Part shown: positions 7,581-63,804 of the stretch, piece by piece | Numbering within the stretch: position 1 is the first letter of the stretch | Layout: each line of letters starts with the position of its first letter | From: Bacillales bacterium UBA6380 | GTDB taxonomy: Bacteria; Bacillota_I; Bacilli_A; RFN20; CAG-826 | DNA length: 64,000 nt | NCBI GenBank assembly: GCA_002438785.1 | Contig: DJQS01000011.1 | Location: 27,996 to 91,995, forward strand | Reading direction: 5' to 3' | Notes under the pieces: model-generated | Told to the model about the DNA's origin: nothing | Databases searched by the model: none | Seen by the model: only the letters and a program-made list of their open reading frames with translations | Translations under genes and position numbers: made by a program

Positions 7581-8447
7581 ATGAATGTTGAATTACTAAA
7601 ACCATATGGACTTTGTTCAGGAGCTTTAAAAGCCATAAATTTAATAAAAAAAGTTAGAAAAGATAACCCTAATAATAATATAATTTTATTTGGTCCAATA
7701 ATTCATAACGAGAATATTAATTCGTTAATGAAAGAACTAGATATTAAAGTACTAGATTTACCATATGATGAATATTTTGATGTGATTGACACTTTATCTA
7801 TTGACGATATTGTCATATTACCTGCACACGGGCATGACAATTCACTTGAAGAAAAACTTTGTAGAAAGGGAATTTTATATGTTGATGCAACATGTCCAAC
7901 CATTTTAAAAATTCACGATTTAATTCTTAATGACTATCTAGATAACGATATCATTTATATAGGAAAAAAAGACCATATTGAATCTATAACAACTTGCTTA
8001 CTAAAAGATAATATTTATTTTTACGATATTGATAACACATCAAATTTAGAACAATTCCATATTGTTGACCCAATAATCTTATATCAAACAACATTAACCA
8101 AGCTAGATGTAAAAAATGCAATTAAAAATATTAAAATTAATTTTCCAACTGCACAAGAAGGAAAGACTCTTTGCAGGCAGTGCATTATTAGACAAAATAA
8201 TCTTATAAAAAATTTAACAAAAGATACATTTGTAATTATTGTTGGAAGCAAAACATCTAGTAATACTAAATCTTTACTAGATATATACTATAAAACTACT
8301 AATGATAATAAAATTATCTTTGTAAATTCACTTGAAGAAATTAAAAAAGTAGAATTTAATTCATCCTATAAATATCTAATAACTAGCGGAACATCTACTC
8401 CAAATATAGTAGTAGAAAACATTTATAAATATATTAGATCACTTTAG
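7581..8447 (+). CDS. ispH: 4-hydroxy-3-methylbut-2-enyl diphosphate reductase (MEP pathway)
   Basis: YGLCSGALKAI near the N-terminus, GPIIHN, ATCP: the three conserved Cys regions of IspH/LytB. 288 aa. Confidence 0.85.
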   Translation: MNVELLKPYGLCSGALKAINLIKKVRKDNPNNNIILFGPIIHNENINSLMKELDIKVLDLPYDEYFDVIDTLSIDDIVILPAHGHDNSLEEKLCRKGILYVDATCPTILKIHDLILNDYLDNDIIYIGKKDHIESITTCLLKDNIYFYDIDNTSNLEQFHIVDPIILYQTTLTKLDVKNAIKNIKINFPTAQEGKTLCRQCIIRQNNLIKNLTKDTFVIIVGSKTSSNTKSLLDIYYKTTNDNKIIFVNSLEEIKKVEFNSSYKYLITSGTSTPNIVVENIYKYIRSL

Positions 8448-16503: not shown

Positions 16504-16944
16504 TCAATCTCCTAATATTTGATCTTGAAGACCAAACATAATTACCTCATCTTCTTTTTTCATATGGTCATAGCCTAATAAATGAAGTAAACCATGAACA
16601 AATAAAAAAGAAAGTTCACGTTTTAGAGTATTTCCATAATTAATAGCATTTTCTTGGGCTACTTCATAACAAATATAAATTTCACCCAAATCTAATGGTA
16701 AATCTCCAAAAATCTGTTCGCTCTTATCATCTAAAAATGCAAATGAGATTACATCAGTTGCACGATCTATGTTTCTATATTCTTTATTTATTCGCTGAAT
16801 TTCTTTTTTATTAACAAATGTAACACTCATTATTACATTATCGTTTTTTTTCAATATGTTAAGAGTTTTTTTTAAAAGATTTTTGTAAATAATATTAAAT
16901 TCATCAATATTATAAGAAGTTTCATTTGATATACTTAAAAACAT
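16504..16944 (-). CDS. ybeY: Endoribonuclease YbeY (16S rRNA maturation)
   Basis: HGLLHLLGYDH metal-binding motif. 146 aa. Confidence 0.85.
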   Translation of the reverse strand: MFLSISNETSYNIDEFNIIYKNLLKKTLNILKKNDNVIMSVTFVNKKEIQRINKEYRNIDRATDVISFAFLDDKSEQIFGDLPLDLGEIYICYEVAQENAINYGNTLKRELSFLFVHGLLHLLGYDHMKKEDEVIMFGLQDQILGD

Positions 16945-16976
16945 AATTTAATTATATCAAATAATTATGATATAAA

Positions 16977-18173
16977 CTAATTAAAGTGATAAAAATATAA
17001 ACATTTATAATATTTAATATTTTCAATGTCATTATCTATCTCTATAATTTTTTCAAATTGTTCTTGTAAAAAAACAAAAATGAAAAAATGAAAAAACATA
17101 TAATTAATCGAAATAAAACCAGTAAATCCTATGTAAATTAAACTTAGGCAAATTGTTAAAAAAATGAGAAAATATCTTTTAAAATTATTATATGATATAC
17201 ATTCATAAGACTGACTATTTAAAGCTTTTACTTCATTTTTAAATTCATCTCCATTGATATTTGAATTACTTAATAATTTATTTTCAATATTTTCGAGATT
17301 ATTCTTTTTTGTTTTATAAAACTTATTATCAATTTTTTTAAAAATATATTGAAAAGCAAAAGTTATTGCTAATATTAATAAACTCCAATAATTATTAATT
17401 CCTAGAATAATACAGCCAAAAACAAGCATAAAAAAACTTGAAATGAATTTTACTGGCGTTGATACTAATGAAAATTTGAATTTACTCATTGGTAAATAAT
17501 ATTTATTAAAGTCTTGTCTTTTAAAAAAGCATTCTTCAAGAAAAATTTGATTATCAAAATATTTTAAAGACAATATTATTATTTTTTGGTATAACAACTC
17601 AAATATTATATATGATAAAAATAAAAGAAATGAGATCATAAAACTAAATTTCTTATCAATAAAAAATGTAGCCGTGATTAAAGAAAGCAAACTTAGAAAT
17701 TGAAATAAAATAGTTATCCAAAAAAAATATTTTGGATATACACGGATTTTTTTTAATTTAAAATTACTCGTTAATATATTACTAACTTCTAATATTTCTC
17801 CATTCCAAATTTTAAATAAATTATTTTTAGAAATCCAATAGATGCCTGAAGAAGGATCATAAACTTTAACTCTACTTTTAGTTATTTTCTTAATTAATAC
17901 CATATGTAAGTTATCTTTTTTATTAATTACAATTAAAAAAGGGCATGAGACAGTTTTTTTAAAAAGAGCTTTTTTATCAATAATACGTGAAGCTTTTATA
18001 ATTACTCCTTCTTTTTTTGCTAAGTTAATTAGATCTCTTAATGAAGACGATGTTTCAACATTAACATGCGGATAATAAAGATAATCTGTATTTTTGTAAA
18101 CAATTGCTAAAAGCATTTTAATACAAGTGACGCCGCAGTCTTTTTCGCCGATTTGCTTTATATAATATTTCAT
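16977..18173 (-). CDS. Membrane protein with an N-terminal peptidase C39 (double-glycine leader peptidase) domain and no ABC ATPase domain
   Basis: The N-terminus IKQIGEKDCGVTCIKMLL matches the Q/Cys motif of C39 peptidases. HMVLIKKI...VKVYDPSSG matches the His/Asp motif. About six hydrophobic helices follow and there is no Walker A or B anywhere. Confidence 0.6.
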   Translation of the reverse strand: MKYYIKQIGEKDCGVTCIKMLLAIVYKNTDYLYYPHVNVETSSSLRDLINLAKKEGVIIKASRIIDKKALFKKTVSCPFLIVINKKDNLHMVLIKKITKSRVKVYDPSSGIYWISKNNLFKIWNGEILEVSNILTSNFKLKKIRVYPKYFFWITILFQFLSLLSLITATFFIDKKFSFMISFLLFLSYIIFELLYQKIIILSLKYFDNQIFLEECFFKRQDFNKYYLPMSKFKFSLVSTPVKFISSFFMLVFGCIILGINNYWSLLILAITFAFQYIFKKIDNKFYKTKKNNLENIENKLLSNSNINGDEFKNEVKALNSQSYECISYNNFKRYFLIFLTICLSLIYIGFTGFISINYMFFHFFIFVFLQEQFEKIIEIDNDIENIKYYKCLYFYHFN

Positions 18174-18221
18174 AATTTACCTCCTATATACAAGTCGTAG
18201 TAAATTATAAAAATTTGGGGG
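18174..18221 (-). promoter_or_regulatory. Conserved 15-nt core (TACGACTTGTATATA on the minus strand) in a 7-bp inverted repeat that encloses the RBS of the C39-domain gene, with an upstream C5 tract
   Basis: Plus strand reads cat-AATTTAC-ctccTATATACAAGTCGTA-GTAAATT-ataaaaattt-GGGGG. The core is identical to one upstream of comEA at 39336..39350. The C5 tract lies 17 nt from the core in both copies. Confidence 0.55.
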
Positions 18222-18223
18222 AT

Positions 18224-18250
18224 AAAAAAAGATCATCTTACAATGATCTT
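18224..18250 (-). terminator. Rho-independent terminator of rpsU
   Basis: AAGATCAT-cttaca-ATGATCTT stem-loop followed on the minus strand by a T7 run. Confidence 0.7.
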
Positions 18251-19526: not shown

Positions 19527-20819
19527 TTAATCTAAACATGAATTATCCTTTTTAAAAGTAATATTAAGTATTTTATCTTTTATATTAATGTCAGATTTGA
19601 TAAAACATTCTAAATAATTAGAACTGTGTCCCTTGTATCCACCTCTTCGGGAATCATAACTTTCAAATAAAAAATCAATATCTTTACCATAAAATTTATT
19701 TTCATAATTGTGTTCTAGTTCATCTGAAAGTTCAATTAAGCGATTAACACGATTCTTTTTTTCTATATCAGAAACTTTATTCGGAAATTTGCTTGCTGCA
19801 CTGCCATTTCTATCACTATAAGGAAATACATGTACTTTTGCAAAATTTATCTTCCTTATAAAATCCAATGTTGCTTCAAAATCCTCTTCAGTTTCACCAG
19901 GAAAGCCAACAATCACATCAGTTGTAATAGATATATCAGGTTTAATCTTTCTAATTTTATCTATCTTCAAAATATAATTTTCAAGATTGTATTTTCTATG
20001 CATCAATTTTAAAATTTTAGAACTTCCACTTTGAAGTGGAACATGTAAATGATTTGCAATATTAGGATAATCTTTTAATAAATTAATAAAATCTTCATCG
20101 ATTTGACTTTCTTCTATTGAAGATATTCGTAATCTATATAAATCAGGGTTATTAATAAGTATTTCTTTTAATAATTTAGAAAATGTCATGCCATTATTAA
20201 AGTCAAGACCATAACTGCCTTGATCAATACCAGTTAAAATGATTTCTTTATAGCCATTATTAATTAATTTCTTAACTTCATTTAATATAGATTCTATAGG
20301 TCTACTTCTTGATGGCCCTCTTACAAATGGAATCAAACAATATGTACAAAAATTATTACAACCATCTTGAATTTTCAAAAAAGCTCTTGTCTTATCAAAA
20401 TAATTATCTAAAGAAATATTTTCGTATGTTTTGTCTTTAAGAGCATTATTTTTTATTAATATAGGTTGTCTATTAGTTAAAAATTCATTTATATAATCAA
20501 ATATCTTACTTCTTTGATTAGTTCCTAAAACAATATTTGCTTTTAAATTATTAATTACGTAATCACCTTCATATTGTGAAAAACACCCCATAACACAAAT
20601 TATTGCATCACGATATTTTATTCGATATTGTCGAATCATTTTTTTAGACTTACTGCTACTTGTTTCTGTTACAGCACATGTATTAATAATTATTAAATCA
20701 GGTGTATCAGTAGAATCTTTTTTAATTTCTATAAAACCGTGCTTCATTAAATCATTAGCAACTGCTTCAACCTCGTAACTATTAACCTTACAACCTAAAA
20801 AATCTATTAAAAATTTCAT
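19527..20819 (-). CDS. mtaB: tRNA threonylcarbamoyladenosine methylthiotransferase (MiaB-like, YqeV/MtaB)
   Basis: MTTase N-domain Cys (CKVN...NTCAV...MGC), radical SAM CNNFCTYC, and a C-terminal TRAM domain. 430 aa. Syntenic with rsmE. Confidence 0.8.
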   Translation of the reverse strand: MKFLIDFLGCKVNSYEVEAVANDLMKHGFIEIKKDSTDTPDLIIINTCAVTETSSSKSKKMIRQYRIKYRDAIICVMGCFSQYEGDYVINNLKANIVLGTNQRSKIFDYINEFLTNRQPILIKNNALKDKTYENISLDNYFDKTRAFLKIQDGCNNFCTYCLIPFVRGPSRSRPIESILNEVKKLINNGYKEIILTGIDQGSYGLDFNNGMTFSKLLKEILINNPDLYRLRISSIEESQIDEDFINLLKDYPNIANHLHVPLQSGSSKILKLMHRKYNLENYILKIDKIRKIKPDISITTDVIVGFPGETEEDFEATLDFIRKINFAKVHVFPYSDRNGSAASKFPNKVSDIEKKNRVNRLIELSDELEHNYENKFYGKDIDFLFESYDSRRGGYKGHSSNYLECFIKSDINIKDKILNITFKKDNSCLD

Positions 20820-21208
20820 TTCGAAACCTCATTTTTTAATCTTTCATACAATTTATAACTAATAAATCCATTTTCATATAAACCATTAATAAAATTTATT
20901 TTAGTAGAATTATAGTATAAATCTAGTATATTTTTAGCTTTTTGTTCTATTCCTTTACTATCGAAAAACTTCAAGTTTCTATCATATAAATAAATAAGAT
21001 TATCTATAAATCCATCGTTATTTAAAATTAAAATAACATGAGTATGTGGATTTAAATAAGCACGAGATGTAGAATCAGAACTAACAAAAATTAAGTTCTT
21101 CAAACTATTGATTTTCTTCTTTTTTTTGTAAATATGATAATAATTATCATTAAGTATTTGATTATTATTCCTACTTTTATAAAGTGTTTTTAATATTGAA
21201 AATGCCAT
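20816..21208 (-). CDS. Hypothetical protein (130 aa, no recognisable family) inserted between rsmE and mtaB
   Basis: ORF with the same codon usage as its neighbours. Its 4-nt overlaps with both flanking genes suggest translational coupling. Confidence 0.45.
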   Translation of the reverse strand: MAFSILKTLYKSRNNNQILNDNYYHIYKKKKKINSLKNLIFVSSDSTSRAYLNPHTHVILILNNDGFIDNLIYLYDRNLKFFDSKGIEQKAKNILDLYYNSTKINFINGLYENGFISYKLYERLKNEVSK

Positions 21209-36755: not shown

Positions 36756-38774
36756 TTAGAAAATACTAAAATAATAAGTGATTGTACCTTCAATATCAGT
36801 TCTTCTAATCTTAATGTCTAATGCATTTAATTTTTCTAATGTTTCATAATGAGGATGATTAAATTTATTATTTTTTCCGCATGAAATAATAGCTTCTTTT
36901 GGATTGCATTTTTCCAAAAAATTATATGATGATGAACTGTTCGATCCATGATGCCCAACTTTTAAATAATCGCATTTTATATTATTATCAATTATTTCGT
37001 TTTCGACCATTGAGCTTGCATCTCCCATTAATAAAAATTTATAATCTTTAATACAAAAACTTAAAACAAGTGATTTATCATTCTCAGAATAATTACTTTT
37101 AGAAAAAGGGTTGAGGTTTTCAAAAGTAAAATATCTCGTTTTTATTGGAAAAACATTGCTATTATCAATTATTTTTTTAATTTTAAAATTATGTGATAAT
37201 TGCTTTAATGAACCATAATGATCAAAATCATAATGTGTTATAAAAACATAATCTAAGTTATAAATACGTTTTTTTCTTAAAAAAGGAATTAATACATTAG
37301 ATGCTATATCATAATTTAAATTACCACCAGTATCAATTAAAATAGATTCTGTTTTATATCTAATTAATGTTGAATCACCTTGTCCCACATTTATAAAATT
37401 AATTTCGCAAGTAAATTGATTTTTAATTGGAAGGATATAAATAACAATACAAAGTAGATTGATTATTATTAACTTATTTTTATAATAAGTAAAATTAATT
37501 TCGAAAAAATATATTGTAACGATTAATAAAGCAAAAAATAAAACTAAATAAATTTGATTAAATGGCGGTATATACACATCAAATAAAGAAATATTTATAT
37601 TAGTGAAACAATTTATCGTAACTCTAAATATTTTTTCATAAAGACTCAAATGTAGACCATAAAAATATAGTATACTAATTAAAAATAAAAATTTAAAATA
37701 TGGTAATAATAAAATATTCAATAATATGTAAACTAAATTAAATCCGTTATTTGTTGAAATTATAAAAGGTAATAATATTACATAAAAAAGCGTTTTTGAA
37801 CGTATTCTCTTCTTGATATTTTTTTCATATCCAAGATAGTTTTTAAATAAATAAAATGAAATTACAATTAATAAAGGTATGTAAAATGATTGGCTATAAA
37901 TCAACGTTTTATTTATCAAAATAAATATCAAAAATAATAATAGTTTAATTGACAATTTATATTCATCATTTTTATTATCAATCAAAAATATTCCTAATAA
38001 AAACATTGAAACTGTCCTTATAAATAAAAACCGATGAAGATTCAAAATAAATATTGGTGTAAATACAATTAAAGAAATTACTCGACTTGTTCTATCACTA
38101 AATTTATACGCCAATAATTTAGATACGCCATATAATATAAAATTTATAAAAGTGCCGCATCCTGATACTAAATTTATTATCATAAGTTTTTTACTTATGT
38201 AATATAAATTTGAATTTATTTCTATTTCTCCAAATAGGAGGCTCGACATAAAAATCTTTGCATTATTATCTTGTATAGCGTTTAAAAAATTTCGCTTTAT
38301 CTTATTAAATCTAATTGGAGATTTAACTAAAATTTCGCTTTTTTTAATATTTAATTTTCTATATATATCGTTATTATTTAAAAATTCTTCAAAGTTAAAA
38401 GAACTTTCATATGAAGTAAAATCTAAATCTTGAAAAGTTCCGTCTATTTTTAAAATGTCGAATTGATCTATTTGGTTATTTTCCGAATAACAATAAAATT
38501 TTTCTTTTAAAGTTTTAAAAATAAAGTAATTATCTTTTCTTTTAAGAACTATTCCTATTAGATTGTTAGATGTTTTTTCCTTAAAGCAATTTATTGATCT
38601 TAATATACCAAATGCAAAAAATACTGTCGCAACTAAAATTAATTTTTTTGTTTTAAATCTTTTAATTAATAAATAAATTACAATAAGTAAAAATGTTATA
38701 GTTAGAATTAAATACTTTATTTTAATTAATAATAATCCTGCTATGTATGATAATAATAGCAATAAAACAAACAT
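36756..38774 (-). CDS. comEC: DNA internalisation competence protein ComEC/Rec2
   Basis: About ten TM helices, a competence domain, and a C-terminal metallo-beta-lactamase domain (HYDFDHYG, VGHHGS). 672 aa. Confidence 0.85.
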   Translation of the reverse strand: MFVLLLLLSYIAGLLLIKIKYLILTITFLLIVIYLLIKRFKTKKLILVATVFFAFGILRSINCFKEKTSNNLIGIVLKRKDNYFIFKTLKEKFYCYSENNQIDQFDILKIDGTFQDLDFTSYESSFNFEEFLNNNDIYRKLNIKKSEILVKSPIRFNKIKRNFLNAIQDNNAKIFMSSLLFGEIEINSNLYYISKKLMIINLVSGCGTFINFILYGVSKLLAYKFSDRTSRVISLIVFTPIFILNLHRFLFIRTVSMFLLGIFLIDNKNDEYKLSIKLLLFLIFILINKTLIYSQSFYIPLLIVISFYLFKNYLGYEKNIKKRIRSKTLFYVILLPFIISTNNGFNLVYILLNILLLPYFKFLFLISILYFYGLHLSLYEKIFRVTINCFTNINISLFDVYIPPFNQIYLVLFFALLIVTIYFFEINFTYYKNKLIIINLLCIVIYILPIKNQFTCEINFINVGQGDSTLIRYKTESILIDTGGNLNYDIASNVLIPFLRKKRIYNLDYVFITHYDFDHYGSLKQLSHNFKIKKIIDNSNVFPIKTRYFTFENLNPFSKSNYSENDKSLVLSFCIKDYKFLLMGDASSMVENEIIDNNIKCDYLKVGHHGSNSSSSYNFLEKCNPKEAIISCGKNNKFNHPHYETLEKLNALDIKIRRTDIEGTITYYFSIF

Positions 38775-38776
38775 TT

Positions 38777-39322
38777 TTAATCAGTTAAAATAATATAATT
38801 TTTTAGTTTATTATAAGTTGCATTACCAATTCCACTTACATTCATTATGTCTTCAATAGTTTGAAATAATCCATTTTCATCACGATATTTTATAATTGAT
38901 TCGCAAATAGTTTTCCCTATACCATCTACATATGTCAAATCTTCCGGATCATTGAATGAATTAATATTCACTTTTTGAATTTCATCCTCGGAACAAATAT
39001 CTGTAGGATCATATCTAGGTGGGATGTAATATGATACATTTTTACTAATCTTAGCATTAGGCAAATAAGCTCTTGTATCAGCCTTATCAGTTATTCCACC
39101 TGCCTTATCAATTAAATCTTGCATTACTGAGCCTTCATCTAAAAGATAATTCCCTGGACTAACAATATAGCCTGAGATTCCAATGGAATTTCTTGTTACT
39201 TCTGTAATGTCATCATTATCGCTATTATTTCTAAAACTATTGAAATCAATGAATTGCATACAAACTAGAGCAATAATTGTAGAAACAGCAACACCAATTA
39301 AAATTTTTAATGTCAATGTCAT
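38777..39322 (-). CDS. comEA: Competence protein ComEA (DNA receptor)
   Basis: N-terminal TM helix, SLBB-like domain, and C-terminal tandem helix-hairpin-helix (GIGKTICESII...VSGIGNATYNKL). Immediately upstream of comEC. Confidence 0.8.
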   Translation of the reverse strand: MTLTLKILIGVAVSTIIALVCMQFIDFNSFRNNSDNDDITEVTRNSIGISGYIVSPGNYLLDEGSVMQDLIDKAGGITDKADTRAYLPNAKISKNVSYYIPPRYDPTDICSEDEIQKVNINSFNDPEDLTYVDGIGKTICESIIKYRDENGLFQTIEDIMNVSGIGNATYNKLKNYIILTD

Positions 39323-39328
39323 AAAAAA

Positions 39329-39372
39329 ACCTCCTTATATACAAGTCGTATATTAAAAGGAGGTAATGGGGG
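39329..39372 (-). promoter_or_regulatory. Conserved 15-nt core (TACGACTTGTATATA on the minus strand) in a Shine-Dalgarno-sequestering hairpin upstream of comEA, with an upstream C5 tract
   Basis: mRNA strand reads CCCCC-auu-ACCUCCUU-uuaaUAUACGACUUGUAUAUA-AGGAGGU-U7-AUG. The 8-bp arms ACCTCCTT/AAGGAGGT are perfect complements. An inner ATATAC/GTATAT inverted repeat is also present. Confidence 0.55.
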
Positions 39373-39387
39373 TAGATTCAGATACTT

Positions 39388-60314: not shown

Positions 60315-62072
60315 CTAACGATATTGTGAATTAAATAAATTATAATAAAAACCATGTAAATTCATTAAATCTCTATGATTACCTTTTTCTATTATTTCTC
60401 CATTATTTAACACCAATATTAAATCACTAGACTTAATAGTAGATAATCTATGAGCAATTACAATCGATGTTTTATCTTTCATTAGATGGTCTAATGCTTT
60501 TCCAATATTGATTTCAGTTCTTGTATCAACATTACTTGTAGCCTCATCTAATATTAAAAGTTCAAATGGCATAAGCATGACTCGAGCTATACATAATAAT
60601 TGCTTCTCACCTTTACTTAAACCTGAATCATTTGAAATTACTGTCTCAAATCCTTTAGGTAAACGCATAATTAAATCATAGCAATTTGCTTCTTTACTAG
60701 CTTTTACTACATCATCAAAACTTGCATTCGGATTACCATATTTTATATTTTCTAATACCGTACCATGAAATATCCAACTATCTTGAAGAACCATTCCAAA
60801 CTTGCTTCTTAAGCTCATTTTTTGAATATTTAAATAATTTGTATTATTAATTAGAATTTCCCCAGCATTAGGATCATAAAATCTTAACAATAAATTGATT
60901 ATTGTAGTTTTACCACATCCAGTAGGACCAACAATAGCAATTTTTTGATTGTTTTTAACTGTAAAGTTTATATTTTTAAATAAAATTTTATTATTATCAT
61001 AACCAAATTTTAGATTCTTAATATCAATATAATTTATAATCTCTTCGATTTTTAATTTGCCTTCATCTATATCATCTTTAGCATTAAATACTTCAATAAT
61101 TCTATTTAAAGAGACAAAACCACTTTGAATTTCATTTAAACAACTTGAAATTTCATTTAAAGGCTTAGCAAATTGGTTTGCATATTGTAAAAAAGTAGTA
61201 ATTCCTCCAACGGTTAATTCAATTCCTATATTTAAATTTGAACCAAATGCAACCAAAATAGACCCTACTATTCCAACTAAAGCATATGTTGAATTATTAA
61301 TTAATCTTGTTACTGGATTAGTTAATGAAGATAAAAATTGTGACTTTTGTCCAGCTTTATATAATAAGTTATTTTTGCTTATAAATTTTTCAAATGAATC
61401 AATGTCATAATTAAATGACTTAATTACATCAAGATTTTCAAAGTCTTCTAAGACTTGTGCACCTAGTTTTCCTGTTTCATAAGCTTGTTTTTTAAAATAA
61501 ATATGACTTTTTTTACTAAGTAAATAAGATAGTAAAAAACTTAATGGCGTAAATATAATGATTATTAATGCTAATAACCAATTTTGCCAAAGCATAAAAC
61601 CTAATGTAAATATAATTGTAATTATTCCTTGATAAAATTGTTTATATCCACTAATTAATCCTAATGAGACATTATCAACATCATTTATTAATCTACTTAT
61701 AATATCGCCATGGAGATGATTATCTATAAATGATATAGACATAGAATTTATTTTATTAAATAAATCAACCCTTATATTGCATATAATTTTTTCAATAAAT
61801 ATATTTACAAAACTTTCAAATATATATTGAAAAATAGTAACAATTATAATCAATGAAATAATTACATATAAATATGTCAATTCATCATTAAGCATTGTTT
61901 CATAACTAATAAGTGGATTGTTTATTATGTTTGTAAAAATATCAATACATTTTCCACTAAAATAAGGAATTAACAATAATGCAGGGACAAAAATTAAACA
62001 GCAAATAAAAGAAAAAATAACTGATTTTAATGACTTTTTTAAATATTTAAAAAGAAATTTAAAATTATTCAT
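60315..62072 (-). CDS. ABC exporter, fused permease/ATPase half-transporter (multidrug/lipid exporter type), partner B
   Basis: Six TM helices then an NBD: Walker A GPTGCGKTT, signature LSKGEKQ, Walker B LILDEATS, H-loop. 585 aa. Confidence 0.85.
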   Translation of the reverse strand: MNNFKFLFKYLKKSLKSVIFSFICCLIFVPALLLIPYFSGKCIDIFTNIINNPLISYETMLNDELTYLYVIISLIIIVTIFQYIFESFVNIFIEKIICNIRVDLFNKINSMSISFIDNHLHGDIISRLINDVDNVSLGLISGYKQFYQGIITIIFTLGFMLWQNWLLALIIIIFTPLSFLLSYLLSKKSHIYFKKQAYETGKLGAQVLEDFENLDVIKSFNYDIDSFEKFISKNNLLYKAGQKSQFLSSLTNPVTRLINNSTYALVGIVGSILVAFGSNLNIGIELTVGGITTFLQYANQFAKPLNEISSCLNEIQSGFVSLNRIIEVFNAKDDIDEGKLKIEEIINYIDIKNLKFGYDNNKILFKNINFTVKNNQKIAIVGPTGCGKTTIINLLLRFYDPNAGEILINNTNYLNIQKMSLRSKFGMVLQDSWIFHGTVLENIKYGNPNASFDDVVKASKEANCYDLIMRLPKGFETVISNDSGLSKGEKQLLCIARVMLMPFELLILDEATSNVDTRTEINIGKALDHLMKDKTSIVIAHRLSTIKSSDLILVLNNGEIIEKGNHRDLMNLHGFYYNLFNSQYR

Positions 62073-63804
62073 GAGACTGCTCCTTATTTTGTGAATTATA
62101 AATTTCTTTATAAATTTTTGAACTATTCAGTAATTCACTATGTCTACCAATAGCGTCAATTTTTCCATTATCAATAACAATTATTTTGTCAGCTTTCATA
62201 ATACTTGATGTGCGTTGAGAAACAATAATCGTTGTTAAATCTTTTATTTTAGAAATATTATCCCTTACTTTAAAATCAGTTAAATAATCTAATGCACTAG
62301 TAGAATCATCAAGTATAAGTGTTTCACTATTTTTTATTAAGGATCGTGCAATACACAAACGTTGCTTTTGTCCACCACTAAAATTTTTGCCACCTTCTAA
62401 TACTTTATGATCAATAAAATCATCGTATTTTCTTACAAAACCATAAGCTTCAGAGTCTTTTAAAGCCTTTATTATTTCTTCATCACTTGCATCTCTTTTT
62501 CCAATTAATAAATTAGATTTTATTGTTCCATTAAATAAAACATTATATTGATTAACCAAAGAAATTTCATCTCTTAAACATCTTAAATCATAATCTTTAA
62601 TATCATAGCCTTTATATAAGATTTTACCATCGCTAGCATCAAAAAATCTCTCAATAAGTTTAATTATTGATGTCTTTCCACTTCCTGTACCACCTATAAT
62701 ACCAATAGTTTCACCTTTATTTATTTTGAAATCTATATTCGAGATGACATTATTACTAGAATCGTTATATCTAAAACTTACATTTTTAAATTCAATCAAT
62801 GGTTCACCTTTATTTATTTTTAAATTTTTAAGTGCATCATCTTTAATTTTAGGTTCATTCATAATTAAAACATTATCAATTCTTTTTTTGCTTGAAATAG
62901 CTTTTGTAAAAATTACTACTAAATTAGTAACAACAATCAAAGCCATAAAAATTTGATTTAAATATGAAATTAATGCAACCACATCACCATCTGTTAAATC
63001 TCCTTTATAAATCAAATTTCCACCAAAATAAATAATTAAAACAATCCCTATATCAACGATTAATAATGTTAATGGATTTACTAATGCATTAATAAAATTT
63101 GCTTTCTTTGTTTCTTTAAAATAGTCAAATGAAAGACTATCAAATTTTGATTTTGTTTCTTCTTGCTTATTAAACGCTCTAATTACTCTACTTCCTTCAA
63201 GCGAATCATTACTAAAAGTGACTAATTTATCTACAGTATTTTGAACTTTTAAATATTGCTTACTATTTAAAGCCATTATTAAAGACAAAATAATTAATAT
63301 AATTGGAATTATAATTAAAAAAATAAGGCCGACTTTAATATTAATAATAAATGAACATATCAAGGAGCCAATGACTAATATTGGTGCTCTAATAACAAGG
63401 CGAATAAGCATAGCAATACCAACTTGCAATCTATTTGTATCGTTATTAATTAAATTAATTAAATTTGCTTTGCCGATAAGTTCAATATCACTCAACGATA
63501 ATTTACTCACTTTTTCATAAATTCTATTTCTTAAATCGGTCCCAAAGCCTTGAGAAGAAATGCTAGCAAAATATTGGCAAATAAATGTAGAACATAGTCC
63601 TAATATACAAAATAATAAAATAATAATTCCAGGAATTAGAATATGATATATGTTTCCATTTTTAGCATAATTGATTCCTTCATTAATAATATATTTCATT
63701 AAGAAAGGGATTATTAATTCAAAAATAACCTCTATAACTTTAAAAATAGGCCCTAATATTAATTCTTTTTTGTAATTTCTAAGCGAATAAAAACTTTTTT
63801 TCAT
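62065..63804 (-). CDS. ABC exporter, fused permease/ATPase half-transporter, partner A (probable heterodimer with the downstream gene)
   Basis: Six TM helices then an NBD: Walker A GGTGSGKTS, signature FSGGQKQR, Walker B LILDDSTS. 8-nt overlap with the partner gene. Confidence 0.85.
   Translation of the reverse strand: MKKSFYSLRNYKKELILGPIFKVIEVIFELIIPFLMKYIINEGINYAKNGNIYHILIPGIIILLFCILGLCSTFICQYFASISSQGFGTDLRNRIYEKVSKLSLSDIELIGKANLINLINNDTNRLQVGIAMLIRLVIRAPILVIGSLICSFIINIKVGLIFLIIIPIILIILSLIMALNSKQYLKVQNTVDKLVTFSNDSLEGSRVIRAFNKQEETKSKFDSLSFDYFKETKKANFINALVNPLTLLIVDIGIVLIIYFGGNLIYKGDLTDGDVVALISYLNQIFMALIVVTNLVVIFTKAISSKKRIDNVLIMNEPKIKDDALKNLKINKGEPLIEFKNVSFRYNDSSNNVISNIDFKINKGETIGIIGGTGSGKTSIIKLIERFFDASDGKILYKGYDIKDYDLRCLRDEISLVNQYNVLFNGTIKSNLLIGKRDASDEEIIKALKDSEAYGFVRKYDDFIDHKVLEGGKNFSGGQKQRLCIARSLIKNSETLILDDSTSALDYLTDFKVRDNISKIKDLTTIIVSQRTSSIMKADKIIVIDNGKIDAIGRHSELLNSSKIYKEIYNSQNKEQSHE

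What the first reader, a model, noticed from the sequence alone, without database searches (positions are those of the whole stretch)
16977..18173. C39 double-glycine peptidase domain fused to a polytopic membrane domain but lacking any ABC ATPase
The Cys/His/Asp C39 motifs appear intact (DCGVTCIKML ... HMVLIKK ... YDPSSG). C39 domains normally form the N-terminus of ComA/LagD-type ABC exporters that cleave GG-leader peptides such as competence pheromones and bacteriocins. Here the peptidase is attached to about six TM helices with no nucleotide-binding domain. It also shares its upstream regulatory motif with comEA. This points to a stand-alone leader peptidase, possibly coupled to a peptide signal that controls DNA uptake, in an organism group where competence is poorly characterised.
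Basis: partly seen in the sequence, partly recalled or inferred. Interest (0 to 1): 0.58.

Follow-up and report, generated by a model that had tools for sequence, protein, structure and literature searches.

The report
ABC peptide exporter lacking its ATPase
This gene encodes a bacteriocin/pheromone-type leader peptidase still fused to the membrane half of its ABC exporter but with no ATPase; it is conserved in about 80 uncultured gut Bacilli species and shares a control sequence only with the DNA-uptake genes comEA/comEC.

Summary
ORF 16977..18173 (-) encodes a 398-aa protein with an intact C39 peptidase domain (Pfam E 1.2e-19), six long transmembrane helices and no nucleotide-binding domain.

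The membrane part is the ABC-exporter transmembrane domain. AlphaFold models match PCAT1 over peptidase plus membrane domain (Foldseek E 3e-13, TM 0.65-0.69). A family profile aligns to PCAT1 residues 16-349 (E 3.9e-15).

It is not a broken gene. Seventy-five complete species-level orthologues are 370-415 aa long. Gln7, Cys13 and Asp106 are kept in 75/75 and His90 in 74/75. The gene always sits directly upstream of ybeY-cdd-era.

No ATPase gene and no double-glycine peptide gene lies nearby.

The shared comEA motif is real: CCCCC-N17-TACGACTTGTATATA-GGAGG occurs only before these two genes in the window. Models trained only on C39 leaders recover comEA leaders as top hits in two divergent clades.

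Best reading: an active, ATPase-less PCAT derivative that cleaves GG-type leaders at the membrane and is co-regulated with DNA uptake. Substrate, energy source and leader mechanism are unknown. It is a new variant of a known kind.

The parts
16977..18173 (-). C39TM gene: 398-aa PCAT-derived protein (C39 peptidase plus six-helix ABC-exporter TMD, no NBD)
   Evidence: ORF and translation. Pfam C39. AF2 pLDDT 86.4 and Foldseek best hit PCAT1. Family of ~400-aa proteins.
17781..18167 (-). C39 peptidase domain (residues 3-131). Catalytic codons: Gln7 18153-18155, Cys13 18135-18137, His90 17904-17906, Asp106 17856-17858.
   Evidence: Pfam E 1.2e-19. Profile alignment to PCAT1/ComA. Invariance 75/75, 75/75, 74/75, 75/75. 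Fold matches to ComA PEP and LahT150.
17043..17732 (-). Transmembrane domain (residues 148-377): six long helices of the ABC type-I exporter fold. The cytoplasmic loops are short, 5-7-residue turns with no coupling helices.
   Evidence: AF2 secondary structure. Foldseek to PCAT1, TAP, MsbA, McjD, TM287/288. Profile aligned to PCAT1 TM1-TM4. Conserved D207, K233, N260, E297, F361.
16980..17042 (-). Short cytoplasmic C-terminal tail (residues 378-398, KYYKCLY motif) in place of the NBD. Stop codon at 16977-16979.
   Evidence: Alignment A1. The sequence ends 32 nt before ybeY.
18174..18221 (-). Leader/control element of C39TM: C-run 18217-18221, 17-nt spacer, TACGACTTGTATATA 18185-18199, GGAGG 18180-18184
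   Evidence: Models R1/R2 score 34-35 bits. No sigma-70 consensus promoter here.
18224..18250 (-). Terminator-like hairpin plus U-run after rpsU. It separates rpsU from the C39TM leader.
   Evidence: Read directly from the sequence. Not called by the simple scan, which requires 3 G-C pairs.
39323..39372 (-). Matching leader of comEA: C-run 39368-39372, anti-SD ACCTCCTT 39357-39364, TACGACTTGTATATA 39336-39350, GGAGG 39330-39334, U7
   Evidence: Hairpin dG -14.9 kcal/mol, z -4.2. R2, trained without it, scores it 26.9 bits, E 1.6e-6.
36756..39322 (-). comEA (38777-39322) and comEC (36756-38774), the only other genes in the window behind the shared leader
   Evidence: Pfam HHH_3/SLBB for comEA and Lactamase_B for comEC. 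Followed by holA, as in Bacillus.
16504..16976 (-). Downstream neighbour ybeY (16504-16944) with its own candidate promoter in the 32-nt spacer: TG 16958-16959, TATAAT 16951-16956, ATG 6 nt later, no Shine-Dalgarno
   Evidence: Sequence. C39TM-ybeY-cdd-era synteny in nearly all of the 86 related loci; ybeY follows directly in most and 3.7 kb downstream in L072/L079.

Best explanation
The gene encodes an active, membrane-embedded descendant of a peptidase-containing ABC transporter (PCAT, the ComA/LagD/PCAT1 type). It has kept the cytoplasmic C39 double-glycine peptidase and the six-helix exporter membrane domain. It has lost the ATPase and the coupling helices that would talk to one.

It is a vertically inherited, single-copy core gene of an uncultured, host-associated lineage of Bacilli with AT-rich genomes (Candidatus Onthovivens and relatives).

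**Shown:** domain identity, fold, conservation of the catalytic set, fixed length, fixed genomic position, absence of a neighbouring ATPase or substrate gene, and a cis-element shared specifically with comEA-comEC.

**Inferred mechanism:**
1. The protein dimerises like an ABC exporter.
2. The docked peptidase recognises a GG/GA-type leader at the cytoplasmic face and cuts it. In PCAT1 this step needs no ATP.
3. The cargo is released into, or passed through, the membrane-domain cavity. Alternating access would be driven by the proton-motive force, as in the ATPase-less ABC-fold peptide transporter SbmA, or not driven at all.

**Inferred regulation:** expression is switched together with the DNA-uptake proteins ComEA/ComEC through the shared leader. 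That leader could be a dedicated promoter or an SD-masking RNA operator. This places the protein's unknown substrate in, or next to, the competence programme.
For: **Domain and fold**
- C39 domain above the Pfam cut-off.
- Profile-to-PDB hit to PCAT1, E 3.9e-15, spanning C39 through TM4; hit to ComA at 1.6e-9.
- AF2 models with pLDDT 86.4 and 82.9.
- Foldseek best hits are PCAT1 inward-facing states, E 3e-13, TMq 0.65-0.69. The membrane domain also matches TAP, MsbA and McjD.

**Family and conservation**
- 464 50%-identity clusters at E<=1e-3; nearly all of the 150 listed are 385-415 aa and match full-length.
- Precomputed Pfam annotation shows C39 only, apart from one additional peptidase-family call.
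- 75 complete species orthologues keep Q7, C13 and D106 in 75/75 and H90 in 74/75.

**Context**
- Always immediately upstream of ybeY-cdd-era-recO-glyS, except in L072/L079, where a 3.7-kb insert intervenes.
- Cytoplasmic-loop turns of only 5-7 residues.

**Shared leader**
- Exact bipartite motif at only two sites in the window.
- Same pairing in MAG JAXDXW, L014 versus L088.
- The combined model finds nothing else above 14 bits in 452 kb.
- Models trained on C39TM leaders alone recover comEA leaders as the best untrained hits in clade A (26.9 bits, E 1.6e-6) and clade C (18.7 bits, E 7e-4).

**Precedent**
- SbmA is an ATPase-less ABC-fold peptide transporter driven by protons (abstract of PMC13316013).
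Against: - No GG-leader peptide gene was found in the window or in about 1.6 Mb of related loci, so there is no substrate.
- No experimental or transcript data exist.
- Transport is pure inference. The membrane domain could be only an anchor or docking platform.
- The comEA link rests on one other operon. No comG, comF or dprA locus could be examined, and the metagenome scan for the motif failed.
- The leader may be an insulator hairpin rather than a co-regulation signal.
- Cross-prediction for some comEA leaders is only marginal (10-14 bits against a background of ~11).
- The first AF2 model shows TM2-loop-TM3 as one continuous helix, so details of the loops are uncertain.
- No dimer model was possible.
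Confidence: 0.5

Rival explanations
1. The protein is a membrane-anchored processing protease with no transport role. The former exporter domain only anchors the C39 domain and positions it at the inner membrane face. There it matures a cytoplasmic or membrane protein, for example a competence pseudopilin (which is also cut after a Gly at the cytoplasmic face) or a regulator.
For: - The catalytic set is more conserved than the membrane domain: mean column identity 0.48 versus 0.37.
- There are no coupling helices and no energy module.
- There is no neighbouring exported-peptide gene.
- It is co-regulated with membrane competence proteins.
Against: - The membrane domain keeps the full six-helix exporter fold and several near-invariant polar residues: D207 73/75, E297 74/75, N260 69/75. 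This is more than a mere anchor needs.
- The pilin idea could not be tested, because no pilin or prepilin-peptidase genes were available.
Confidence: 0.25
2. It is a split ABC exporter. The ATPase is encoded elsewhere as a separate polypeptide, or borrowed from another ABC protein such as those at 60315..63804, and docks onto this membrane domain.
For: - The fold is that of an ABC exporter.
- Complete ABC half-transporters exist in the same genome.
Against: - No NBD gene is adjacent in any of 86 loci. The flanks are rpsU or dnaJ and ybeY.
- The cytoplasmic loops that carry the NBD-coupling helices are reduced to 5-7-residue turns and are variable.
- The two ABC genes in the window are complete TMD+NBD proteins 42 kb away.
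- As far as I know (from memory, not checked here), type-I exporters with detached NBDs are essentially unknown.
Confidence: 0.08
3. The shared leader does not mean competence co-regulation. It is a generic insulator: a terminator-like hairpin that contains the Shine-Dalgarno. It would be placed after highly expressed genes (rpsU/dnaJ, greA) and would be similar by convergence or local sequence copying. The protein's role would then be housekeeping, as its position in the ybeY-era cluster suggests.
For: - In many species the C39TM Shine-Dalgarno lies in a CCUCC...GGAGG hairpin followed by a U-run. In the window, the comEA hairpin directly follows greA.
- A perfect anti-SD stem is seen in 23% of C39TM leaders against 0-13% for other genes.
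- The gene is a vertically inherited core gene in a housekeeping block.
Against: - The element is sequence-specific, not just structural: 15/15 identical loop bases in the window, and clade-specific variants that change in parallel in both genes.
- It persists upstream of comEA when the upstream gene is different and has its own terminator (L088/L089).
- No other gene among about 25 per genome in 20 or more genomes has it.
Confidence: 0.2
4. It is a decaying remnant of a PCAT gene (a truncated pseudogene) with no function.
For: - The NBD is missing.
- A few orthologues are truncated: L008 112 aa, L027 148 aa, L059 233 aa.
Against: - Length is fixed at about 390-409 aa in 69 of 75 species.
- The catalytic residues are invariant at 22-62% overall identity.
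- A strong Shine-Dalgarno is conserved.
- Synteny is conserved across an order-level clade.
Confidence: 0.02

[quoted passage not shown]
   Same: - N-terminal C39 domain with the Gln/Cys/His/Asp set.
- Six-helix type-I exporter membrane domain.
- Same overall fold as inward-facing PCAT1 with docked peptidase.
   Different: - No nucleotide-binding domain; the cytoplasmic loops are shortened to turns.
- No adjacent GG-peptide, immunity or accessory (ComB/HlyD-like) gene.
- A core gene in a housekeeping cluster rather than part of a bacteriocin or pheromone locus.
Mollicute PCATs (NCBIfam NF045998, Mbov_0121 family)
   Same: Best NCBIfam match, E 2e-15, over model positions 1-205 (C39 plus TM1-2). 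From a lineage reported as sister to RFN20 (PMC10868615).
   Different: - Scores 56 bits against a cut-off of 500.
- Only the first 205 of 673 model positions align.
- The Mbov_0121 family has the ATPase.
SbmA/BacA (SLiPT) peptide transporters, and the isolated LmrA membrane domain
   Same: An ABC-exporter-like membrane domain that works without an ATPase. SbmA is proton-driven and moves peptides (abstract of PMC13316013). That LmrA's membrane domain alone acts as a secondary transporter is from memory.
   Different: - No sequence or top-fold match to SbmA.
- SbmA imports and has no peptidase.
- Proton coupling here is untested.
C39-like domains (CLD) of HlyB-type type-1 secretion ABC transporters
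   Same: Same papain-like fold at the N-terminus of an exporter membrane domain. HlyB is a weaker fold hit.
   Different: CLDs lack the catalytic Cys and only bind substrate. Here Cys13 is invariant.
ComX (sigma-X) 'cin-box' TACGAATA and sigma-H-type competence promoters of Firmicutes
   Same: The window's core TACGACTT matches 6 of 8 cin-box positions. It sits just upstream of the comEA start, where a -10 element with a short leader would lie. This comparison is from memory of the streptococcal consensus.
   Different: - The best-conserved part is CTTGTAT, not TACGA.
- Other clades have different cores.
- A C-run, not a T-tract, lies upstream.
- No sigma factor gene was identified.
- Not tested.

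Membership tests
Peptidase family C39 (bacteriocin-processing / double-glycine peptidases) | Sequence match to the family model above its curated threshold | tested here: met
   PF03412, 70.9 bits against a cut-off of 22, residues 3-131 of 133 model positions.
Peptidase family C39 (bacteriocin-processing / double-glycine peptidases) | Catalytic Cys and His (plus Asp and oxyanion Gln) at the aligned active-site positions | tested here: met
   Q7, C13, H90 and D106 align to the QxxxxDCG, H and DP motifs of PCAT1/ComA. They are conserved in 75/75, 75/75, 74/75 and 75/75 orthologues.
Peptidase family C39 (bacteriocin-processing / double-glycine peptidases) | Papain-like peptidase fold | tested here: met
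   Foldseek hits to ComA PEP (3k8u, 5xe8), LahT150 (6mpz) and PCAT1 PEP (7n87), with target-normalised TM 0.66-0.81.
Peptidase family C39 (bacteriocin-processing / double-glycine peptidases) | Cleaves after a GG/GA/GS leader of a cognate peptide | not testable with these tools
   No candidate substrate was found nearby. Activity needs biochemistry.
PCAT / AMS ABC transporters (ComA, LagD, PCAT1) | C39 domain fused to a six-helix type-I ABC exporter membrane domain | tested here: met
   AF2 six helices. PCAT1 is the best fold hit over both domains. Profile aligned to PCAT1 residues 16-349.
PCAT / AMS ABC transporters (ComA, LagD, PCAT1) | C-terminal nucleotide-binding domain (Walker A/B, ABC signature) | tested here: not met
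   No ABC_tran hit even at E<=10. The protein ends 21 residues after TM6, and ybeY follows 32 nt later. All family members listed are about 400 aa.
PCAT / AMS ABC transporters (ComA, LagD, PCAT1) | Genomic association with GG-leader peptide genes and/or an accessory protein | tested here: not met
   Neighbours are rpsU or dnaJ and ybeY in 86 loci. There are no GG-leader small ORFs.
NCBIfam NF045998 (Mbov_0121 family peptidase-domain ABC transporter) | Full-length match above the curated cut-off | tested here: not met
   56.1 bits against a cut-off of 500; only model positions 1-205 of 673 align.
C39-like domain (CLD) ABC transporters (HlyB type) | Catalytic Cys replaced; domain non-proteolytic | tested here: not met
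   Cys13 is present and invariant.
SbmA/BacA-like (SLiPT) secondary peptide transporters | Sequence or closest-fold membership of the SbmA_BacA family | tested here: not met
   No Pfam hit other than C39. SbmA is not among the 50 best Foldseek matches, whereas PCAT1 is.
SbmA/BacA-like (SLiPT) secondary peptide transporters | Proton-gradient-driven peptide transport without an ATPase | not testable with these tools
   Mechanistic analogy only. Candidate titratable residues are E192, D207, E297 and H362.
Competence (late com) regulon | Shares the regulon's cis-element with several DNA-uptake operons (comE, comG, comF, dprA, ssbB) | tested here: inconclusive
   Shared with comEA-comEC in three clades. 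No other com locus was available, and the metagenome scan gave only a chance hit.

The most novel reading that the evidence does not exclude
This is the first natural PCAT that works without ATP. An order-wide, essential-looking dimer cuts GG-type leaders and moves or releases the cargo using the proton-motive force. It would belong to the DNA-uptake regulon of a wall-reduced gut lineage. Its role there could be as the maturase/exporter of a competence pheromone or fratricide peptide, or as a replacement processing enzyme for competence-machinery proteins.
Probability: 0.2. Interest if true: 0.8.

Novelty: new variant of a known kind. Interest (0 to 1): 0.6.

Why it matters
PCATs are the textbook case of coupling leader cleavage to ATP-driven export. 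A natural family that keeps peptidase and channel but discards the motor, and stays conserved in about 80 or more species, raises several questions:
- Can the membrane half of an ABC exporter work alone?
- If so, how is it energised?
- What does a double-glycine peptidase do as a core gene outside any bacteriocin locus?

The cis-element it shares only with comEA/comEC gives a concrete, testable handle on competence regulation. This matters because the lineage is uncultured and host-associated (Onthovivens and its relatives), and nothing is known there about DNA uptake.

It also provides a compact 398-aa natural construct for structural work on peptidase-membrane domain docking.

Tried and rejected
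- **Local substrate search.** Regex scans for GG-leader small ORFs in the window gave only one hit, out of frame inside glyS. The same scan of intergenic space in 94 loci gave none.
- **Extending the regulon.** An exact-pattern scan of JGI metagenome contigs for ACGACTTGTATATA-N0-2-GGAGG returned a single chance hit inside an ORF of an unrelated higher-GC contig, L094.
- **Known RNA families.** Rfam found nothing meaningful on either leader.
- **Sigma-70 promoter.** No consensus promoter lies upstream of C39TM or comEA, whereas rpsU and greA each have one. I could not decide between three readings of the leader: an alternative-sigma promoter, an extended -10 promoter, or an RNA operator.
- **Alignment A2** was too divergent for the locus finder, so A1 was used instead.
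- **Apparent longer or shorter homologues.** P0018 (608 aa), P0015 and P0022 are gene-calling or contig artefacts.
- **Inserts near the gene.** In L072/L079 the inserts appear, by my reading of their N-terminal sequences without a profile search, to be lar-type cofactor genes. In L082/L085 they look like yqfC/yqfD-like sporulation genes. None is a substrate or an ATPase.
- **Literature.** Searches found no description of an ATPase-less PCAT or of this family.
- **ComEA as substrate.** Rejected: it has an ordinary N-terminal membrane anchor and no GG leader.
Full report
**1. The observation**

The window is AT-rich (about 26% G+C) and reads cleanly in table 11. Its gene order follows the Bacillus yqe-yqf region: comEA-comEC-holA ... 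lepA ... hrcA-grpE-dnaK-dnaJ ... rsmE-mtaB-rpmF-deoC-rpsU-[finding]-ybeY-cdd-era-recO-glyS-dnaG-sigA.

The finding is a real ORF at 16977..18173 on the minus strand. It encodes 398 aa and has an AGGAGG 6 nt before the ATG.

Pfam places Peptidase_C39 on residues 3-131 (E 1.2e-19, 70.9 bits against a cut-off of 22). It finds nothing else even at E<=10. The best NCBIfam match is the mollicute 'Mbov_0121' peptidase-ABC transporter. Only model positions 1-205 of 673 align, at 56 bits against a cut-off of 500.

The protein ends 21 residues after the last hydrophobic helix, and ybeY begins 32 nt later. There is no ATPase.

**2. A large, uniform family, not a truncation**

- The word-indexed protein search found 19 relatives. 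All complete ones are 397-405 aa and annotated with C39 only.
- The exhaustive search of 1.8 billion cluster representatives found 464 clusters at E<=1e-3 and 281 at E<=1e-10. Nearly all of the best 150 are 385-415 aa and aligned end to end.
- A profile search added 240 more.
- A scan of GTDB species representatives returned 80 loci at 22-62% identity. All come from uncultured gut or rumen MAGs labelled Bacilli, 'Mollicutes', Candidatus Onthovivens or Candidatus Fiminaster.

From memory, Onthovivens belongs to GTDB order RFN20. A paper on that order describes it as sister to the Mycoplasmatales, with wall-less non-sporulating families and sporulating families (PMC10868615).

In 75 complete orthologues, Gln7, Cys13 and Asp106 are kept in 75/75 and His90 in 74/75. 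Lengths are 370-415 aa. Several membrane-domain residues are nearly invariant: D207 73/75, E297 74/75, F361 72/75, N260 69/75.

**3. What the membrane part is**

An AlphaFold2 model built from a 45-sequence alignment is confident (pLDDT 86.4, pTM 0.78). Foldseek against the PDB gives these results:

| Match | Score | Covers |
|---|---|---|
| PCAT1, inward-facing, peptidase docked (6v9z, 9azl, 4ry2) | E 3e-13 to 1e-9, query TM 0.62-0.69 | peptidase and membrane domain |
| PCAT1, ATP-bound outward-facing | query TM 0.48 | fits worse |
| ComA and LahT peptidase domains | E ~1e-5 | N-terminus |
| TAP, MsbA, McjD, TM287/288 | E 1e-3 to 2e-2 | membrane domain |

At sequence level, the family profile hits PCAT1 at E 3.9e-15, aligned from profile position 5 to 301 onto PCAT1 residues 16-349. 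That span is the peptidase through TM4. The active-site Gln, Cys, His and Asp sit in register.

A second model, of a 23%-identical member (P0019, pLDDT 82.9), shows the six helices cleanly: 147-169, 178-210, 218-259, 263-299, 305-347 and 353-404. The two cytoplasmic loops are reduced to 5-7-residue turns, so the helices that normally couple to the ATPase are gone.

Loop details are therefore uncertain.

The protein is a PCAT minus its motor.

**4. Context**

- In all 86 related loci the gene lies upstream of ybeY-cdd-era(-recO-glyS) wherever that flank is present. It is directly upstream except in L072/L079.
- The upstream neighbour is rpsU, or in one large clade dnaJ.
- In Bacillus this slot holds phoH and pgpH (from memory).
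- Rare inserts appear, by my reading of their N-terminal sequences without a profile search, to be lar-type genes or yqfC/yqfD-like sporulation genes.
- No ATPase gene, accessory protein or GG-leader peptide gene is nearby.
- The two ABC genes at 60315..63804 are ordinary complete half-transporters 42 kb away.
- ybeY appears to have its own promoter in the 32-nt spacer (TG-n-TATAAT, 6 nt before the ATG, no Shine-Dalgarno). The special leader described next therefore probably serves the C39 gene itself.

**5. The shared leader**

Upstream of the C39 gene:
CCCCC-N17-TACGACTTGTATATA-GGAGG-N6-ATG

Upstream of comEA:
CCCCC-N17-TACGACTTGTATATA-A-GGAGG-N7-ATG

- The 15-mer occurs only at these two places in 64 kb.
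- CCCCC occurs only six times on both strands.
- No other of the 53 genes has a C-rich block before its Shine-Dalgarno.
- Neither gene has a consensus sigma-70 promoter. The genes upstream of them, rpsU and greA, each have one.

The pairing is conserved. In MAG JAXDXW, whose C39 protein is 46% identical and whose ComEA is 69% identical to the window's, the C39 leader reads TACGACTTGTATTGTAAGGAGG. The comEA leader reads CCCCCCC-N17-GCGACTTGTATAGTAAAAGGAGG, even though a different gene with its own terminator lies upstream.

Other members of this clade show the same CTTGTAT core and a C-run 21-23 nt upstream of it.

Three tests with sequence-only models:
- **Both genes' leaders as training set (R1).** All training sites score 25-39 bits. 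Nothing else exceeds 14 bits in 452 kb.
- **Clade-A C39 leaders only (R2).** The window's comEA leader is the best untrained hit (26.9 bits, E 1.6e-6). Other comEA leaders score only 10-14 bits, against a background of about 11.
- **C39 leaders of a distant clade only (R3; proteins about 26% identical; core CCyCC-TATTGGGTAAGT-AGGAGG).** The top hits in 391 kb are comEA leaders (CTCCCTATTGAAGTAATAGAGGAGG) at 18.7 bits, E 7e-4. A third comEA leader scores 14 bits, against a background of 11 or less.

The two genes therefore carry a common element whose sequence has drifted in parallel. This is the signature of a shared trans-acting factor.

**6. What the element is remains open**

The window's comEA leader folds into an 8-bp ACCUCCUU/AAGGAGGU hairpin that buries the Shine-Dalgarno and is followed by U7 (dG -14.9 kcal/mol, z -4.2). 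Many distant C39 leaders do the same (z -2.7 to -3.7). A perfect anti-SD stem is commoner before this gene (23%) than before its neighbours (0-13%). However, the window's own C39 leader and its closest relatives do not fold this way.

Three readings remain:
- **(a) Alternative-sigma promoter.** The C-run would be at -35 and TACGAC at -10. TACGACTT resembles the streptococcal ComX box TACGAATA at 6 of 8 positions (from memory).
- **(b) Promoter inside an insulating hairpin.**
- **(c) RNA operator** for a translational regulator.

Rfam has no matching family.

**7. Mechanism, with shown and inferred steps marked**

*Shown:*
- an intact, constrained C39 active site;
- a PCAT-like exporter membrane domain;
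- no ATPase in cis or nearby;
- loss of the coupling loops;
- core-gene status;
- a specific shared leader with comEA-comEC.

*Inferred:*
- The protein dimerises like PCAT1.
- It binds a GG-type leader at the cytoplasmic face and cleaves it. In PCAT1 cleavage does not need ATP (from memory).
- The cargo either passes through the membrane domain or is released on the cytoplasmic side.

If transport occurs, the only available energy is the membrane potential or a proton gradient. SbmA is a precedent: an ABC-fold peptide transporter without an ATPase, driven by protons (abstract of PMC13316013).

The comEA link suggests the substrate belongs to the competence programme. It could be a pheromone, a fratricide peptide or a machinery component. 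No substrate has been seen.

**8. Comparison and novelty**

The protein works like a PCAT at the peptidase and membrane-domain level. It fails two defining PCAT features that were tested: the NBD and the locus association.
- It is a member of peptidase family C39.
- It is not a CLD, because the Cys is present.
- It is not an SbmA-family member.

Literature searches found no description of such a family. I rate it a new variant of a known kind, with moderate-to-high interest (0.6).

The main gaps are the substrate, the energy source and the rest of the regulon. None of these could be reached with the capped searches. The metagenome motif scan gave one chance hit, and two fold libraries were offline.

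Noticed in passing
window 16945-16976 (minus strand): ybeY has no Shine-Dalgarno. A canonical extended -10 (TG-A-TATAAT, 16951-16959) ends 6 nt before its ATG, which would give a leaderless mRNA. If general, this lineage uses leaderless transcripts for some housekeeping genes.
   Followed up: no
window 39323-39387 (minus strand): greA has no separate terminator. The only hairpin plus U-run after it is the one that contains the comEA Shine-Dalgarno (dG -14.9 kcal/mol, z -4.2). Termination of greA and masking of comEA translation would therefore be the same structure.
   Followed up: partly
whole window (44 genes, 18,505 codons): CGG is almost unused: 2 codons, against 370 AGA and 109 CGT. A 2026 paper reports predicted CGG Arg-to-Trp reassignment in some Onthovivens genomes (PMC13092985). 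Worth checking in this genome.
   Followed up: no
window 36756-38774 (minus strand): The ComEC homologue (672 aa) matches only the metallo-beta-lactamase domain in Pfam at E<=1e-3. The 'Competence' channel domain is not detected, here or in the relatives' precomputed annotations. The channel part is therefore highly divergent.
   Followed up: no
L082 1138-2275; L085 1208-2390: In two deep-branching genomes, genes that look by eye like the sporulation genes yqfC/yqfD lie between rpsU and the C39TM gene, as in the Bacillus yqf region. This fits the report that some RFN20 families still sporulate.
   Followed up: partly
L072 and L079, 11270-14840: A 3.7-kb insert of four genes sits between C39TM and ybeY. 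By their N-terminal sequences, three of them look like LarC, LarB and LarE nickel-pincer cofactor genes. It is the only break in the C39TM-ybeY adjacency.
   Followed up: partly
L052 ~7812-7823 and L095/L096 ~1462-1475: In the distant clade, a perfect palindrome TTTTTCGAAAAA lies immediately upstream of the C-rich block in both a C39TM leader and a comEA leader. It is a possible protein-binding site belonging to the shared element.
   Followed up: no
L008, L027, L059 (C39TM orthologues): Three species representatives carry shortened reading frames of 112, 148 and 233 aa. These are either assembly errors or occasional loss of the gene.
   Followed up: no
L097 84-884: A TIR-domain (ThsB-like) gene sits just upstream of greA-comEA in one relative. 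It is a defence-type gene inserted next to the competence operon.
   Followed up: no
window 20816-21208 (minus strand): A 130-aa ORF between rsmE and mtaB has no Pfam match. Relatives have a 253-aa gene, also unannotated, in the same slot.
   Followed up: no
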